A stretch of DNA of 64,000 nucleotides from positions 96,163 through 160,162 of the forward strand of contig CAZXFD010000001.1 in NCBI GenBank assembly GCA_964640635.1. Direction: 5' to 3'. The translations under genes were made by a program, and so were the position numbers. Below are positions 1 through 4,182 of the stretch, piece after piece. This stretch comes from an uncultured Gammaproteobacteria bacterium (GTDB taxonomy: Bacteria; Patescibacteriota; Patescibacteriia; UBA1558; S5-K13). The notes beneath the pieces were generated by a model, which saw only the letters and a list, made by a program, of their open reading frames with translations, had not been told where the DNA came from and ran no database searches. Every line of letters begins with the position of its first letter. Position 1 is the stretch's first letter.

Positions 1-24
1 GTAGTGTTTAATCATTATTAACCT

Positions 25-402
25 ATGGGGCAGAATTATTTTCTGCCCCCGTGTATCAATATGCAATTAATAGAGATAAAATTTTTTTTAAATAGCGATT
101 TTATTAGTACTGAAAAAAATAAGTATAGACTTATTGGTGAAACCACAGAAAAAACAATATTAGTATCTTCTAGAATTAGTGTGTGTAAAAAGTGTGTTCA
201 AAAAAGATTACTTTCTTCAAGTTTTTTTTCTATTAAAAAATATAAGACAACTTCAGAAGAAAATAAAAAAAATATAAGAGAAGTTGTGCAAAAAATATCT
301 AAATATGAAAATCAATTATTTGAATATGAAAAACAGGGTAAAAAAATTATTTTTACAAAAAGACACAATTTAATACCAATACCCGGTTGTAATTGTAAAT
401 AA
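25..402 (+). CDS. Hypothetical small protein (125 aa; alternative start at M13, nt 61) with C-terminus ...IPIPGCNCK; possible precursor or partner peptide for the downstream YcaO
   Basis: ORF track. Its stop is 2 nt before the YcaO ATG, so the two are translationally coupled. No recognisable domain. The Cys-X-Cys C-terminus is a plausible azoline site. No SD sequence. Confidence 0.35.
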   Translation: MGQNYFLPPCINMQLIEIKFFLNSDFISTEKNKYRLIGETTEKTILVSSRISVCKKCVQKRLLSSSFFSIKKYKTTSEENKKNIREVVQKISKYENQLFEYEKQGKKIIFTKRHNLIPIPGCNCK

Positions 403-404
403 CA

Positions 405-1682
405 ATGAATAAATTAATAAAAAATTTAAATGATCTAGACTTCTTTGTTGATGCAGATATTAAATGGATAGATGAAATTTTTAGTGAAAAAACTGGTATT
501 ATTAATGCCATACTAGAAAGATTTGAATTAAAACGATACAATTTTAAAATGTTTCAATCGTTAACATGTAATGCTAAAATAATATTTGATTTAGATAGGG
601 AAATATCCAGCGGAGGACTTGGGGTAAGCAAAGACAGAAAGAATGCTTTTCTTGCTTGTATAGGAGAATCAATAGAAAGATATTGCTTATCTTATTATAA
701 AGAAGGTAAATTATTATTTTCAAAATTCCAAACATTACCAAAAAGCAAGAGAATTGAAGACTTTCAAATATATACAAATCAACAATACAAGAGAAATAAA
801 ATATTTCTTAATCCGAGAACAAAAGCCATTTATTGGGAAAAAATATATTGTATATTTAATAGAAAAAAATATATATATTGGCCAGCTAGTTTAATTTATA
901 TGCCATTCAAAAATGAATCTGTTGCTGAAATTTCATCTACAGGGGTATCCGCTCACAAAAATATAAAAAAATGTATAATTGGGGGTATTTTAGAAATAAT
1001 AGAAAGAGATGCAATAATGATAAATTTCCTTAGAAATCTAAACCCACATGAAATAAATTTAAATACAATTACGGATAAAAACAAAGAATTAATAAGGCTT
1101 ATAAGAAGAGGATATAAAATTAAGATATATAGGTTGTATAGCGATATAGATATACCTATATTTATGGGTCTAATATGGAGGCAGGGTAAAAACGGAATTC
1201 ATTACGGAATAGGAGCGTCTGCAGGTTTAAGTTCAGAAATGGCAATAGAAAAGACACTGAAAGAATGCTTGTTCACATATTTTTATGGAAGGTATTTACT
1301 TAAACAAAAACCCAAAAATAAAAGACAAATAGATGCGTTATTTAAGCACTTTTTATATTATCAGGGAAAAAATTTTAAGAAGCTATTGTCCCTAATGTCG
1401 GTGTCAAAATCTATTAATTATGATAAAATTATAATATCAGAAAAAGAATTGCTGCGGTATTTTAAAAAAAATAAGATCAAAGTATTCTTTAAAGAACTGA
1501 CCACCCCAGATGTAAATAACAAAAAAATTAAAGTTGTAAGGGTTATAATTCCAGGGTTTCTAGATTTAAATAAAAAATATAATTTGACAAAGCTAGGTTC
1601 GAAAAGACTATGGGACGTACCAAAAAAATTAAATTTAAAATCCAATAAATTTATAACAAAAGAACCGCACCCATTTCCCTAA
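405..1682 (+). CDS. YcaO-domain protein (ATP-dependent cyclodehydratase-type)
   Basis: Has the YcaO ATP-binding motifs GLGVSKDRKNAFLACIGESIERY and GGILEIIERDA. A late GIGASAGLSSEMAIEKTLKE segment is also present. The protein ends ...KEPHPFP, a PxPxP C-terminal tail typical of azoline-forming YcaOs. Confidence 0.75.
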   Translation: MNKLIKNLNDLDFFVDADIKWIDEIFSEKTGIINAILERFELKRYNFKMFQSLTCNAKIIFDLDREISSGGLGVSKDRKNAFLACIGESIERYCLSYYKEGKLLFSKFQTLPKSKRIEDFQIYTNQQYKRNKIFLNPRTKAIYWEKIYCIFNRKKYIYWPASLIYMPFKNESVAEISSTGVSAHKNIKKCIIGGILEIIERDAIMINFLRNLNPHEINLNTITDKNKELIRLIRRGYKIKIYRLYSDIDIPIFMGLIWRQGKNGIHYGIGASAGLSSEMAIEKTLKECLFTYFYGRYLLKQKPKNKRQIDALFKHFLYYQGKNFKKLLSLMSVSKSINYDKIIISEKELLRYFKKNKIKVFFKELTTPDVNNKKIKVVRVIIPGFLDLNKKYNLTKLGSKRLWDVPKKLNLKSNKFITKEPHPFP

Positions 1683-1705
1683 ATATTTACTGATAAAATA
1701 ACAAT

Positions 1706-3337
1706 ATGGAAAAAATAGATATAGAACTACAAGAAAATCAACAAGATAAAAATATCGAAAATAACGATCCTTTTGAAATAAAAAAGAAGATTATTCCAGA
1801 TGAATGGAAAGAGGATATTGACAATATACTCACCAAAGACCTTCTTGGTGCAAATAGATATTTTGTACAAACAAATCCAAATATTTCAAAATCTGTGGAA
1901 TTGGAAGCGTCAAAACACCCACGAGATTTTTATAAAGACCTAGTAGAAAGATGGGGTTGGCATAATGAGTTTTATGAAAAACTTCTTGAACCATCAATAG
2001 ATTTTTTACTTGAAGCAAAACATACGGAATTATCCCCAGAACAAATAAAAGTCATAATTCAAGTATATCAAACTGCTTCAATGGTTGATGTTTCTACACT
2101 ACAAATAAGCGGTGCTATAAAAAAGAATATAGATAAATGGATAAATGATCCAATATTTAGCCAACTTTCAGAGAAAGAAAGGAATTTAGCAATTACCCCA
2201 CCACAAGAAAATTTTTGGCTTAAATATCATATAGATCATTTACAATATATAAAAGCATTAAATTTGGGAGATAAAGAGACCGCCAAAAAATTAAAGCTTG
2301 AATTATTAAATAAATATCATATAAATGATGAAAAAATCTTTCTTGGCAGACAAAAGCCATTTTCAAGATATGATGAAAAGTCAATTGAAAAAATAGATAA
2401 AGAGATAGAAAGCTTATCTATTAGTCCAGAACAAAAAATAGAACATTTCTATCTTACAATGGAAAGACCCACATTAAAATCAATAAGAGATATATTAATA
2501 TATGATAATGTAGAAGAATATAGATTATTGACTTCTTTGTTTGGGATTTCTGGATTTATATTAAGAAAAAAAATTCTTGAATATCTTTCTGAATCAAAAA
2601 TATTACCAAATAATGGACAAATATATGAATTTGATGACCTCACAATTAAAAGTGCTCTTGAAAAATTACTTGAATACAGGTGTGATTTTTTCAAAAAAAA
2701 TATAAATACATATAAACAAACTGGGGATACTTGTGGTGCTGCGAGTCTAATGATGGTCTTAAATTACCTATCCAATTTTGATTTAAATAAAGAGAACGAA
2801 GAAATATTAAATAATAAGTCTAAGTCTCAATACATATCAGGAAATCATTTTTCTGCTTTAGCAAATGAAGCAAATAAGTTTAATTTGGAAACAAAACTTA
2901 TTCATTCAGAAAAGAATTTATTCAAAAATGATAGATTTTTTGACAAAGAATTGTTTGTAAAATTAACTAAGGAATATAATGACTATCTAAATTTAGCAAA
3001 ATCATCTGGAACACAAGTAGAAACCAATGTTTTAATTAATAGTAAAACTATAAGAGAATATTTGGATCAAAATTATTTGATTCTATTAGCTGGCAAACTA
3101 GGACAAATATTTCATTCTATAGTTGTATGTGGTCACAATGAAAATGGAATAATAATTAATGACCCACTACGTACAAAGCAAGAGGTGTATAGTAATGAAT
3201 ATATAGAAAATTTTATGTCTACTCAAATAGGTAGGTGGGCACTTTTAATAAGGAAAGATTCATCTAGTGTAAAATTATTACTAGATAATCTTAATTCATT
3301 TCGACAAAAATCCAAAAAATATATGTCAGTAAATTAA
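1706..3337 (+). CDS. Two-domain protein: unknown N-terminal region (~330 aa) plus C-terminal C39-like (papain-fold) cysteine peptidase domain
   Basis: C-terminal YKQTGDTCGAASLMMVLNYLS (Q...C-G-A-A-S-L-M motif) followed by HSIVVCGHNENGIIINDP (His/Asp region). This resembles the Peptidase_C39-like family. Same operon as the YcaO gene. Confidence 0.55.
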   Translation: MEKIDIELQENQQDKNIENNDPFEIKKKIIPDEWKEDIDNILTKDLLGANRYFVQTNPNISKSVELEASKHPRDFYKDLVERWGWHNEFYEKLLEPSIDFLLEAKHTELSPEQIKVIIQVYQTASMVDVSTLQISGAIKKNIDKWINDPIFSQLSEKERNLAITPPQENFWLKYHIDHLQYIKALNLGDKETAKKLKLELLNKYHINDEKIFLGRQKPFSRYDEKSIEKIDKEIESLSISPEQKIEHFYLTMERPTLKSIRDILIYDNVEEYRLLTSLFGISGFILRKKILEYLSESKILPNNGQIYEFDDLTIKSALEKLLEYRCDFFKKNINTYKQTGDTCGAASLMMVLNYLSNFDLNKENEEILNNKSKSQYISGNHFSALANEANKFNLETKLIHSEKNLFKNDRFFDKELFVKLTKEYNDYLNLAKSSGTQVETNVLINSKTIREYLDQNYLILLAGKLGQIFHSIVVCGHNENGIIINDPLRTKQEVYSNEYIENFMSTQIGRWALLIRKDSSSVKLLLDNLNSFRQKSKKYMSVN

Positions 3338-3721
3338 AATTTCTAATCAATAGTAAATCATATGTTAACTTAAGATTTATATATGATAATGGAATAAATT
3401 AGTTTTGCCAAATGCTTTCTTTAGGGATTGTACTAAAGAAAGTGATGTGGGGTAATAAATTTATATATATATTTTAAAATTCGGCGCAAAAACCGTATTT
3501 TTTTGTCGTTGAACTGTATGCTAAAAAGTAGATACAATGTGTCTCTCTTTTATAGTGTGTCATATGCATCACTTTATAGTATATTACACTTATTATTTAT
3601 TCATTATGAATATAAGTGTTATAAAAATCAAGTTGTTTTTTAATCCATTTATATCCATAAAACCCTTTAAACATTGTTAACGTGGAGTGGGGGGTAATGA
3701 ATCTGTATTGGGGGTATCATC

Positions 3722-3752
3722 AAACATCGTTAAAAGCGATGTTTTTTGTTTT
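3722..3752 (+). terminator. Hairpin + T-run terminator in the long intergenic region upstream of tspO
   Basis: AAACATCG-TTAAAAG-CGATGTTTTTTG. Confidence 0.5.
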
Positions 3753-3779
3753 TTAAATACTTGTTTTGATGTATAATTA

Positions 3780-4181
3780 GTGTATATGAACACATACAAC
3801 TGGTATTCACAATTAATCAAGCCTTCTTGGTCTCCACCATCTTGGATTTTTGGTCCAGTTTGGTCATTTCTCTATGTTCTCATTATTGTTTCATTTGGAA
3901 AAGTATTTATAATGACTTTTCAAAAACAAATTCCTTTTGTCGTTGCTTTACCATTTGTTCTTAATATTATTTTTAATTTATCTTTTACGCCACTTCAGTT
4001 TGGATTAAAAGATAATTTATTAGCTGCAGTTGATATTCTTCTTGTTCTAATCACGCTTATTTGGGCAATTGTTGCAATTTATCCTTATATGCGATGGATT
4101 TCATATATTCAAATTCCTTATTTGCTCTGGGTTTCTTTTGCAACTATTTTACAATTAACTATTACATACCTAAACAAATAA
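3780..4181 (+). CDS. tspO: TspO/MBR family translocator protein (tryptophan-rich sensory protein); likely start is the ATG at 3786
   Basis: WYSQLIKPSWSPPSWIFGPVWSFLYVLI matches the TspO signature. Five TM helices. A TATAAT box sits directly upstream, so the transcript may be leaderless. Confidence 0.8.
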   Translation: MYMNTYNWYSQLIKPSWSPPSWIFGPVWSFLYVLIIVSFGKVFIMTFQKQIPFVVALPFVLNIIFNLSFTPLQFGLKDNLLAAVDILLVLITLIWAIVAIYPYMRWISYIQIPYLLWVSFATILQLTITYLNK

Positions 4182-4182
4182 T

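What the first reader, a model, noticed from the sequence alone, without database searches (positions are those of the whole stretch)
25..3337. Unannotated RiPP-like operon: Cys-terminated small ORF, YcaO cyclodehydratase with PxPxP tail, and a protein with a C39-like peptidase domain
The three genes are tightly coupled: the small ORF's stop is 2 nt before the YcaO ATG, and the third gene starts 23 nt after the YcaO stop. The YcaO has the ATP-binding motifs (SxxxxxAxxxAxxESIER; EIIERDA). It terminates in ...EPHPFP, the proline-rich PxPxP C-terminus reported to be essential in azoline-forming YcaOs. That feature argues against an E. coli YcaO/RimO-helper type. The upstream 113-125 aa ORF ends ...HNLIPIPGCNCK, so two Cys residues at the extreme C-terminus are candidate thiazoline sites after a long leader. 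The downstream 543-aa protein ends in a papain-fold C39-like peptidase domain (QTGDTCGAASLMMVLNYL ... HSIVVCGHNENG...NDP), a plausible leader protease. No E1-like / Ocin-ThiF partner, no FMN dehydrogenase (which would favour thiazoline over thiazole) and no ABC exporter are visible. That makes it a minimal and atypical architecture, possibly a new RiPP class in a reduced-genome bacterium. The cluster may continue upstream of the window.
Basis: partly seen in the sequence, partly recalled or inferred. Interest (0 to 1): 0.75.

Follow-up and report, generated by a model that had tools for sequence, protein, structure and literature searches.

The report
Compact YcaO peptide-modification operon, precursor misassigned

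Summary
The YcaO is of the azoline-forming type. Its best matches are the SagD/TOMM model and the cyanobactin heterocyclases, and its C-terminal PHPFP is invariant across the family. The 543-aa protein ends in a C39 domain with Gln/Cys/His/Asp intact, closest to double-glycine leader peptidases.

The interpretation needs two corrections.

1. The 113/125-aa ORF is not the precursor. It is a conserved folded protein. Its four Cys are present only in the CPR-type (Candidate Phyla Radiation) copies and absent from all gut-Bacilli copies, which suggests a structural zinc site. Its model resembles the E1-like (ThiF/MoeB) part of LynD, so it is probably the "missing" partner.
2. A tiny ORF, consensus MRKLMKKFNRKYDMLCTA, is the likely substrate. 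It has a strong ribosome-binding site in the Bacilli loci, excess synonymous variation and an invariant K-x-D-[LM]-x-C-[TS]-x-stop end. It lies next to the module in essentially every locus with enough flank.

In this genome two copies (MKKMNQKTDLLCTA and MKKFNQKTDLACSV) lie upstream, and the second ends at window base 11. A reverse search with the peptide's DNA pattern recovered the module in 25 of 27 hits.

This is a new, unusually compact variant of azoline-type RiPP biosynthesis. The product and its role are unknown.

The parts
1..11 (+). Last 11 nt of the second tandem precursor gene, A2 (MKKFNQKTDLACSV). The window holds the final 2 nt of the Cys codon, then Ser, Val and TAA. The rest of A2, and copy A1 (MKKMNQKTDLLCTA), lie upstream of the window at L044 1978-2022 and 1768-1812. 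Window position = L044 position - 2011.
   Evidence: The same tiny ORF is found in nearly every related locus. Coding signature. Reverse search.
61..402 (+). Small conserved protein (113 aa from ATG 61; 125 aa if ATG 25 is used). It is the proposed miniature E1-like (ThiF/MoeB-type) partner of the YcaO. The CxxC is at nt 184-195 and the CxC at nt 388-396, forming a likely structural zinc site. Arg49, Tyr61, His102 and Pro108 are invariant.
405..1682 (+). YcaO cyclodehydratase (425 aa) of the azoline-forming type. ATP/Mg-binding motifs are GESIERY and EIIERDA. The invariant C-terminal PHPFP is at nt 1665-1679.
   Evidence: Pfam YcaO 3.1e-37. TIGR03604 SagD at 178 bits, below its 219-bit cut-off. 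PDB profile hits MusD 1.6e-23, TruD, LynD. 20-sequence alignment.
1706..2695 (+). N-terminal all-helical domain (about residues 1-330) of the 543-aa protein. It is an orphan fold with invariant His86, His178, His205, Asp208, Glu253, Asp267, Asn268, Glu271 and Arg287. Its role is unknown; leader binding and tailoring catalysis are both possible.
2696..3337 (+). C39-type papain-fold peptidase domain (residues about 331-543). Gln338 is at nt 2717-2719, Cys343 at 2732-2734, His470 at 3113-3115 and Asp486 at 3161-3163. It is the probable leader peptidase.

Best explanation
This is a compact, vertically conserved azoline-type RiPP pathway with four components.

1. **Precursor.** An ultrashort peptide of 14-18 residues, encoded by an unannotated gene. 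It has a basic N-terminal part (MRKLMKKFNRKY in gut Bacilli, MKK[MF]NQKT here) and an almost invariant C-terminal core, D-[LM]-x-C-[TS]-x-stop. This genome has two tandem copies just upstream of the window.
2. **Cyclodehydratase.** The YcaO (405..1682) acts together with the small protein (61..402), which is a stripped-down E1-like partner. They would use ATP to activate the amide carbonyl preceding Cys, so that the Cys thiol closes a thiazoline. The following Thr/Ser may also form a (methyl)oxazoline.
3. **Large protein.** Its C39 domain (1706..3337) would then remove the basic leader. Its novel helical N-terminal domain either presents the peptide or performs a further step.
4. **Product.** With no FMN dehydrogenase, the product is expected to be a very small azoline-containing peptide.

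**Shown here:** the genes, their linkage, the motifs, the coding status of the tiny ORF, and the fold similarities.

**Inferred:** the substrate assignment, the chemistry, the cleavage step and the partner role of the small protein.

The biological role of the product is unknown. The near-invariance of the core across CPR bacteria and gut Bacilli, and the lack of a linked exporter or immunity gene, favour a conserved small molecule such as a signal, metal binder or cofactor-like compound. A hypervariable bacteriocin is less likely.
For: **Tiny ORF next to the module.** It was found in 36 loci, counting duplicate contigs. It lies upstream of the large gene in Bacilli loci and between the large and small genes in CPR loci. 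The loci without it are cut at that side, apart from L040, where none was found upstream of an apparently truncated large gene.

**The tiny ORF is coding.**
- AGGAGGTG lies a few bases upstream of the ATG in Bacilli loci.
- Nucleotide identity is 0.76 within the ORF against 0.33 in the flanks.
- Differences per codon position are 2.7 / 2.0 / 5.6.
- In the six core codons there are 791 synonymous against 386 nonsynonymous pairwise differences.

**Core residues fit heterocyclisation.** One CPR locus has Ser in place of the Cys (…KLDLLSTA). That exchange is tolerated by heterocyclisation chemistry.

**Reverse test.** A degenerate DNA pattern for the peptide found 27 metagenome sites. Of these, 25 are followed by the large, small or YcaO genes in the expected order, one lies at a contig edge, and one is a chance hit.

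**YcaO type.**

**Small protein is not a substrate.**
- The Cys residues covary (CxxC together with PGC) and are lost together in Bacilli.
- The CxxC-to-C-terminal-Cys spacing of 65 residues resembles the roughly 69 residues between the two zinc CxxC pairs of E. coli MoeB. That figure is from memory of the MoeB-MoaD structure paper and was not checked here.

**C39 domain.** Catalytic residues intact.

**Minimal core.** Locus L035 has the precursor, the small protein and the YcaO but no large protein. These three are therefore the constant core.
Against: - No biochemical data exist, and none of the proposed chemistry was tested.
- The YcaO scores below NCBIfam's trusted cut-off for the SagD family (178 bits against 219).
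- No RRE or leader-binding domain was recognised.
- The precursor has no Gly-Gly site, although the closest structural relatives of the peptidase cut after Gly-Gly.
- No exporter, immunity gene or dehydrogenase is linked.
- A 14-residue precursor is unusually short for a leader-dependent YcaO system.
- The CPR-type tiny ORFs, including both copies in this genome, lack an obvious Shine-Dalgarno sequence.
Confidence: 0.72

Rival explanations
1. The 113/125-aa ORF is the precursor: a long leader followed by two C-terminal Cys residues that the YcaO converts to thiazolines. The C39 domain then removes the leader.
For: The small ORF is translationally coupled to the YcaO and is always adjacent to it. 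In CPR-type copies the Cys after Pro-Gly is invariant.
Against: - All gut-Bacilli copies lack every Cys (PGENDEKK, PGENL and similar endings) yet keep the YcaO, including its PHPFP tail.
- The C-terminal Cys co-occurs with an internal CxxC, the pattern expected of a zinc site.
- The fourth position varies between Cys, His and nothing.
- The body of the protein is conserved, with invariant Arg, Tyr, His and Pro, and is predicted to fold as an E1-like domain.
- A separate, far better conserved Cys-Thr peptide gene is present.
Confidence: 0.04
2. The tiny ORF is a regulatory upstream ORF (an attenuation or arrest peptide) that controls the operon. The YcaO, small protein and peptidase would act on a protein substrate encoded elsewhere, for example a housekeeping protein. 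This would parallel YcaO-dependent thioamidation of McrA or of ribosomal protein uL16.
For: - The peptide is very short, highly conserved, and sits at the 5' end of the operon in Bacilli loci.
- The hosts have reduced genomes, in which housekeeping functions dominate (1.1-1.5 Mb chromosomes or contigs).
- No exporter or immunity gene is linked.
- YcaO enzymes that modify cellular proteins are known (abstract of PMC13063428, seen).
Against: - In CPR loci the tiny ORF lies between the large and small genes, not at the operon start.
- This genome has two tandem, slightly different copies, as RiPP precursors often do.
- The conserved end is Cys-Thr/Ser, the classic azoline substrates, with one Cys-to-Ser exchange.
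- The YcaO groups with azoline-forming RiPP enzymes rather than with thioamide or E. coli types, and no TfuA is present.
- A leader-type C39 peptidase is linked.
Confidence: 0.1
3. The tiny peptide is the substrate, but the YcaO performs different backbone chemistry, such as amidine or macroamidine formation or thioamidation. Alternatively, the papain-fold domain acts as a transpeptidase or acyltransferase rather than as a leader peptidase.
For: - YcaO enzymes are known to catalyse all three reaction types (general knowledge of the family).
- There is no Gly-Gly site for a canonical C39 cut.
- Lineage-specific neighbours suggest extra tailoring: a nucleotidyltransferase-like protein, an alpha/beta hydrolase and an APH-like kinase.
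Against: - Cys (or Ser) followed by Thr/Ser is invariant, and the PxPxP tail and closest relatives are those of azoline formers.
- No TfuA or sulfur-delivery gene is linked.
Confidence: 0.12

Closest known systems
Cyanobactin heterocyclases (LynD, TruD, PatD, MusD)
   Same: They are the best solved relatives of the YcaO domain (1.6e-23 to 7e-20). They are azoline-forming, ATP-dependent, and work with an E1-like module. LynD is also the top structural match of the small protein.
   Different: - In the cyanobactin enzymes the RRE, the E1-like domain and the YcaO are fused in one roughly 780-aa protein. Here the E1-like part is a separate protein of about 110 aa with no recognisable RRE.
- Precursors here are 14-18 aa, whereas cyanobactin precursors are much longer (from memory).
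- Cleavage here would be by a C39 cysteine peptidase rather than by the subtilisin-like PatA/PatG (from memory).
Linear azol(in)e peptide / TOMM synthetases (SagBCD, McbBCD, BalhCD), including F-protein-dependent systems with a truncated C domain
   Same: Both have split C (E1-like) and D (YcaO) proteins. The best NCBIfam match is SagD, and McbB and McbD appear among the structural and sequence hits. A truncated C domain has precedent in heterocycloanthracin, thiopeptide and haloazolisin clusters (PMC4603692).
   Different: - There is no FMN dehydrogenase (B protein), no Ocin-ThiF-like F protein and no ABC exporter.
- The SagD score is below the family cut-off.
- The precursor is ultrashort and nearly invariant, rather than long and variable.
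Double-glycine C39 leader peptidases (LahT150, the ComA peptidase domain, PCAT1)
   Different: The domain is fused to a novel helical domain of about 330 aa, not to an ABC transporter. The candidate substrate contains no Gly at all.
RiPPs with very short or strongly conserved precursors that work with E1-like enzymes or give small-molecule products (microcin C7 MccA/MccB, pantocin A PaaP/PaaA, PQQ PqqA)
   Same: They share a tiny or highly conserved precursor and a small final product. MccB and PaaA appear among the E1-like structural hits of the small protein.
   Different: The chemistry differs: those systems use adenylation or oxidation rather than YcaO cyclodehydration. Here the E1-like protein lacks the nucleotide-binding half. 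The comparison is by analogy only and comes from general knowledge.

Membership tests
Azoline-forming YcaO cyclodehydratase (TOMM D protein) | YcaO domain with the conserved ATP/Mg-binding acidic motifs | tested here: met
   Pfam PF02624 scores 3.1e-37 over residues 75-385. Glu88, Glu91, Glu197, Glu200, Arg201 and Asp202 are invariant in 20 homologues.
Azoline-forming YcaO cyclodehydratase (TOMM D protein) | Proline-rich PxPxP C-terminus | tested here: met
   PHPFP forms the last five residues and is invariant in all 20 aligned sequences.
Azoline-forming YcaO cyclodehydratase (TOMM D protein) | Score above the curated cut-off of NCBIfam TIGR03604 (SagD family) | tested here: not met
   It scores 178.4 bits against a cut-off of 219.25. 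It is nevertheless by far the best-scoring model (next best 64.5 bits).
Azoline-forming YcaO cyclodehydratase (TOMM D protein) | A nearby precursor peptide with Cys/Ser/Thr in its core | tested here: met
   A tiny ORF ending in D-[LM]-x-C-[TS]-x lies in or next to the module in every locus with enough flank except L040.
Azoline-forming YcaO cyclodehydratase (TOMM D protein) | ATP-dependent cyclodehydration activity (-18 Da per ring) | not testable with these tools
   Requires expression and mass spectrometry.
E1-like / ThiF-MoeB-type cyclodehydratase partner (TOMM C protein) | E1-like fold | tested here: inconclusive
E1-like / ThiF-MoeB-type cyclodehydratase partner (TOMM C protein) | Sequence-level match to ThiF / Ocin-ThiF / SagC models | tested here: not met
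   No Pfam, NCBIfam or PDB sequence match was found.
E1-like / ThiF-MoeB-type cyclodehydratase partner (TOMM C protein) | N-terminal RRE (PqqD-like winged helix) that binds the leader | tested here: not met
   No PqqD or RRE family hit. The protein is too short to hold both an RRE and an E1-like part. No dedicated RRE-Finder run was possible.
Peptidase family C39 (double-glycine leader peptidases) | Papain fold with catalytic Cys and His (plus the oxyanion Gln and an Asp) | tested here: met
Peptidase family C39 (double-glycine leader peptidases) | Gly-Gly (or GA/GS) cleavage motif in the substrate | tested here: not met
   In 35 of the 36 copies listed the peptide contains no Gly. The exception ends in Thr-Gly (L027).
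Peptidase family C39 (double-glycine leader peptidases) | Fusion to, or linkage with, an ABC exporter | tested here: not met
   The N-terminal partner is an orphan helical domain. No transporter family is conserved next to the module.
TfuA-associated thioamide-forming YcaO / E. coli-type YcaO | Best match to these clades, or a linked TfuA | tested here: not met
   methan_mark_1 scores 64.5 bits and TIGR00702 47.6 bits, against 178 bits for SagD. The archaeal YcaO MJ1094 scores 3e-11 against 1.6e-23 for MusD. No TfuA-like gene is among the conserved neighbours.

The most novel reading that the evidence does not exclude
The module would make one specific, phylum-spanning small molecule. This would be a di- to hexapeptide-sized thiazoline (and possibly oxazoline) compound cut from an 18-residue peptide. 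It would serve a conserved physiological role, such as metal binding, a cofactor-like function, or a signal to the host or partner cell, in genome-reduced CPR bacteria and gut RF39-like Bacilli.

The enzyme would be a minimal YcaO with a half-sized E1-like subunit. The orphan helical domain, with its invariant His, Asp and Glu residues, would be a new tailoring enzyme or a new kind of leader-recognition domain replacing the RRE.
Probability: 0.22. Interest if true: 0.85.

Novelty: new variant of a known kind. Interest (0 to 1): 0.62.

Why it matters
- **A possible minimal cyclodehydratase.** If confirmed, this would be among the smallest leader-dependent YcaO systems known. It has a 14-18-residue precursor, a partner of about 110 residues that keeps only part of the E1-like fold, and no recognisable RRE. 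That would help define what a cyclodehydratase minimally needs, which is useful for enzyme engineering.
- **An unusual distribution.** The operon is kept, with an almost unchanged core peptide, in two unrelated groups of genome-reduced bacteria: CPR/Paceibacterota and gut 'Mycoplasma sp. CAG'-type Bacilli. Such organisms discard most biosynthesis, which argues that the product matters to their lifestyle.
- **A lesson for genome mining.** The real precursor is unannotated and invisible to ORF callers, while a neighbouring Cys-ended small protein is an attractive but wrong candidate.

Tried and rejected
1. **Small ORF as precursor.** Rejected on conservation and fold.
2. **Other precursor candidates in the window.** I looked in the 440-nt gap after the large gene (3338-3779) and ran a regular-expression scan of all six frames of the window. 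Neither gave a hit.
3. **Word-indexed homologue search with the small protein.** It found only itself. The exhaustive phmmer search gave 10 relatives.
4. **Structure prediction with locus-derived sequences.** The alignment of phmmer hits was accepted.
6. **Sequence-level link of the small protein to E1/ThiF or RRE families.** None found.
7. **Literature.** I searched for YcaO with CPR or Mollicutes terms, for C39, and for the peptide strings themselves. I also checked the 2015 TOMM survey. No description of this system was found in the searchable library.
8. **Promoter and terminator scans around the precursor genes.** Uninformative.
9. **Organism identity of the window.** It could not be established. 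The cluster look-up returned no names, and the closest named YcaO relatives are labelled Candidatus Paceibacterota.
Full report
**1. Observation**

The three ORFs, their spacing and every quoted motif are present as described.
- The small ORF is 25..402. An in-frame TAA at 19-21 blocks any upstream extension, and an alternative ATG at 61 gives the 113-aa form that NCBI annotates.
- The YcaO is 405..1682, starting 2 nt after the small ORF's stop.
- The 543-aa gene is 1706..3337, starting 23 nt after the YcaO stop.
- Pfam confirms a YcaO domain (3.1e-37) and a C-terminal C39 / C39_2 domain just above the curated cut-offs.

**2. The YcaO**

NCBIfam's best model is the thiazole/oxazole maturase SagD family, at 1.9e-52 and 178 bits. 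That is below the 219-bit family cut-off. It is still far ahead of the McrA-thioamidation type (64.5 bits) and the generic YcaO kinase domain (47.6 bits).

A profile of 20 homologues matches the solved cyanobactin heterocyclases best: MusD at 1.6e-23, with TruD and LynD at about 1e-20. Next come the archaeal YcaO MJ1094 (3e-11) and McbD (1e-6).

The acidic ATP/Mg motifs and the terminal PHPFP are invariant across the family.

**3. Distribution and synteny**

The YcaO has more than 120 relatives at 45-56% identity, clustered at 90%.

A scan of one genome per species found 33 loci.
- Most are gut MAGs labelled 'uncultured Bacilli', 'Mycoplasma sp. CAG:776 / CAG:472' or 'Tenericutes'. Their complete chromosomes or long contigs are 1.1-1.5 Mb.
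- The others include Candidatus Paceibacterota and Woesebacteria, which belong to the CPR.

I built models of the three proteins and ran them over all loci. All three genes are present in 37 of 41 loci. The four others are three loci cut near the YcaO (L001, L014, L036) and L035 (see section 8).

The usual order is [large][small][YcaO], often with overlapping stops and starts. The window carries a permuted order, [small][YcaO][large]. Flanking genes differ between lineages, so the module is the conserved unit.

**4. The small ORF is not the precursor**

Thirty-two distinct copies align along their whole length. Arg49, Tyr61, His102 and Pro108 (113-aa numbering) are conserved, and the family shares a motif H-x-[IL]-x-x-[IV]-P-G.

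The four Cys of the window copy (CKKC and CNC) are absent from every gut-Bacilli copy, which ends in sequences such as PGENDEKK or PGENL.
- Within the CPR-type clade, the CxxC and the Cys after Pro-Gly are invariant together.
- A fourth ligand position varies between Cys, His and nothing.

Joint presence and joint loss of this kind is what a structural zinc site shows. A modification site would not behave this way.

There is no sequence-level support, so I treat the assignment as probable rather than proven.

It is reduced to about half a domain and has no RRE.

**5. The likely precursor**

A Logan contig from the same genome (L044; window position = L044 position - 2011) extends 2 kb upstream. 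Between a divergently oriented PLP-dependent enzyme gene and the small ORF lie two tiny tandem ORFs:
- MKKMNQKTDLLCTA at L044 1768-1812
- MKKFNQKTDLACSV at L044 1978-2022

The second ends at window base 11, so the window starts inside its Cys codon.

A scan of all loci found the same ORF nearly everywhere.
- In gut Bacilli it reads M[RK]KLM[RK]KFN[RK]KYDMLCTA and lies roughly 40-130 nt upstream of the large gene.
- In CPR loci it lies between the large and small genes (MKFIKKFDKKYDLLCTA, MKKINKKFNRKTDLLCTA, MKRLQKFKVKVDLICTA).
- The divergent L035 has …NNKTDLLCTS.
- One CPR locus has …KLDLLSTA, with Ser in place of Cys.

It behaves as a coding gene.
- Bacilli copies carry AGGAGGTG a few bases before the ATG. 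CPR copies do not, this genome's two included.
- Nucleotide identity is 0.76 in the ORF against 0.33 in the flanks.
- Differences per codon position are 2.7 / 2.0 / 5.6.
- In the six core codons, synonymous pairwise differences outnumber nonsynonymous ones 791 to 386.

Across 15 distinct peptide variants, Lys-12, Lys-8, Asp-6 and Cys-3 are invariant. Position -5 is Leu or Met, position -2 is Thr (Ser once), and position -1 is Ala, Val or Gly.

As an independent reverse test, I searched the metagenome collection with a degenerate DNA pattern for K-F-x-x-K-x-D-[LMI]-x-C-T-A-stop. Of 27 hits, 25 are followed by the large, small or YcaO genes in the expected orientation. One lies at a contig edge and one is a chance match inside another gene.

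**6. The large protein**

The AlphaFold model is confident (pLDDT 88, pTM 0.85). Residues 22-327 are all-helical and residues 330-540 form a papain fold.

The helical domain has no structural or sequence relative. It carries many invariant polar residues: His86, His178, His205, Asp208, Glu253, Asp267, Asn268, Glu271 and Arg287. This is compatible with either catalysis or specific binding.

The candidate substrate contains no Gly-Gly, so the cleavage specificity must differ from that of canonical C39 enzymes.

**7. Mechanism proposed**

1. The YcaO and the mini E1-like protein form the cyclodehydratase.
2. ATP activates the amide before Cys, and a thiazoline forms. The next Thr/Ser may also cyclise.
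3. The C39 domain removes the basic N-terminal part of the peptide.
4. No FMN dehydrogenase is linked, so azolines rather than azoles are expected.

All four steps are inferred from family knowledge. Only the parts list and its conservation are shown here.

The product's role is open. The near-invariant core across very distant hosts, the absence of a conserved exporter or immunity gene and the reduced genomes all point towards a conserved small molecule rather than a variable bacteriocin.

**8. Variants and accessory genes**

- In 29 loci, counting duplicate contigs and all Bacilli-type rather than CPR, a gene of about 290-330 aa follows the YcaO by 7-55 nt in most of them. In L033 and L034 it follows the large gene instead. 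It has a G…HHDLD motif and weak NTP_transf_5 hits in 5 of 12 members.
- Two Paceibacterota loci have an alpha/beta hydrolase in that position.
- L035 has the precursor, the small protein, the YcaO and an APH-like kinase, but no large protein, and sits near an integrase.
- None of these accessory genes is present in the window.

**9. Comparison and novelty**

The system works like a split C/D azoline synthetase with a leader peptidase. It differs from every characterised family I could compare it with in four ways:
- the ultrashort, near-invariant precursor
- the half-sized E1-like partner without an RRE
- the C39 domain fused to an orphan domain instead of a transporter
- its host range

No description was found in the searchable literature. 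That library omits most subscription journals, so prior description cannot be excluded.

I rate it a new variant of a known kind.

Noticed in passing
window 1-64000: ARAGORN finds no tRNA or tmRNA gene, and no Rfam family reaches its gathering score anywhere in the 64 kb. Of the 50 ORFs of at least 150 aa, 46 are on the + strand, and GC skew is positive in all but one 2-kb bin. The window therefore appears to lie entirely on one leading strand.
   Followed up: partly
L004 9300-10169 (and 28 other loci, e.g. L009 7236-8102; in L033 at 3214-4182): A fourth gene of about 290-330 aa travels with the module in the gut-Bacilli loci. It lies directly after the YcaO in most of them, or after the large gene in L033 and L034. 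It has a G…HHDLD motif and weak NTP_transf_5 hits in 5 of 12 members, so it may be a nucleotidyltransferase-type tailoring enzyme. It is absent from the window.
   Followed up: partly
L002 9308-9970; L042 8221-8886: In two Paceibacterota loci an alpha/beta hydrolase of about 220 aa (Hydrolase_4 / Peptidase_S9 hits) follows the YcaO by about 20-27 nt. It may be a lineage-specific accessory enzyme.
   Followed up: no
L035 5452-8056 and 9898-11358: This is a divergent form of the module: precursor (…NNKTDLLCTS), a 112-aa small protein with CxxC, a 449-aa YcaO, then an APH/choline-kinase-like protein. There is no C39 protein. A tyrosine-integrase-like gene lies 2 kb further on, which hints at mobility.
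   Followed up: partly
L043 about 3700-3745: The tiny ORF here reads MTMFEQKLDLLSTA, with Ser where all other copies have Cys. Several Bacilli copies (L011, L052, L056, L058) carry a second Cys at position -7 (RKCDLLCTA).
   Followed up: partly
L028 5658-6614: A second, shorter paralogue (318 aa, 4e-67 to the large-protein model) lies about 1.8 kb downstream of the YcaO, in addition to the full-length large gene.
   Followed up: no
e.g. L010 8141-8767 (17 loci): In 17 gut-Bacilli loci a conserved ORF of up to about 225 aa lies just downstream of the fourth gene. By eye its N-terminus resembles thiamine-phosphate synthase (ThiE), and RelA/SpoT is conserved upstream in 24 loci. This is probably lineage synteny rather than function, and neither the identity nor the linkage was tested.
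   Followed up: no
window 3338-3779: This is an unusually long (about 440 nt) gene-free stretch after the large gene. It contains a perfect 10-bp inverted repeat (ctttctttag…ctaaagaaag, about 3415-3445) and a terminator-like hairpin followed by a T-run (about 3724-3750). No conserved small ORF or Rfam match was found there.
   Followed up: partly
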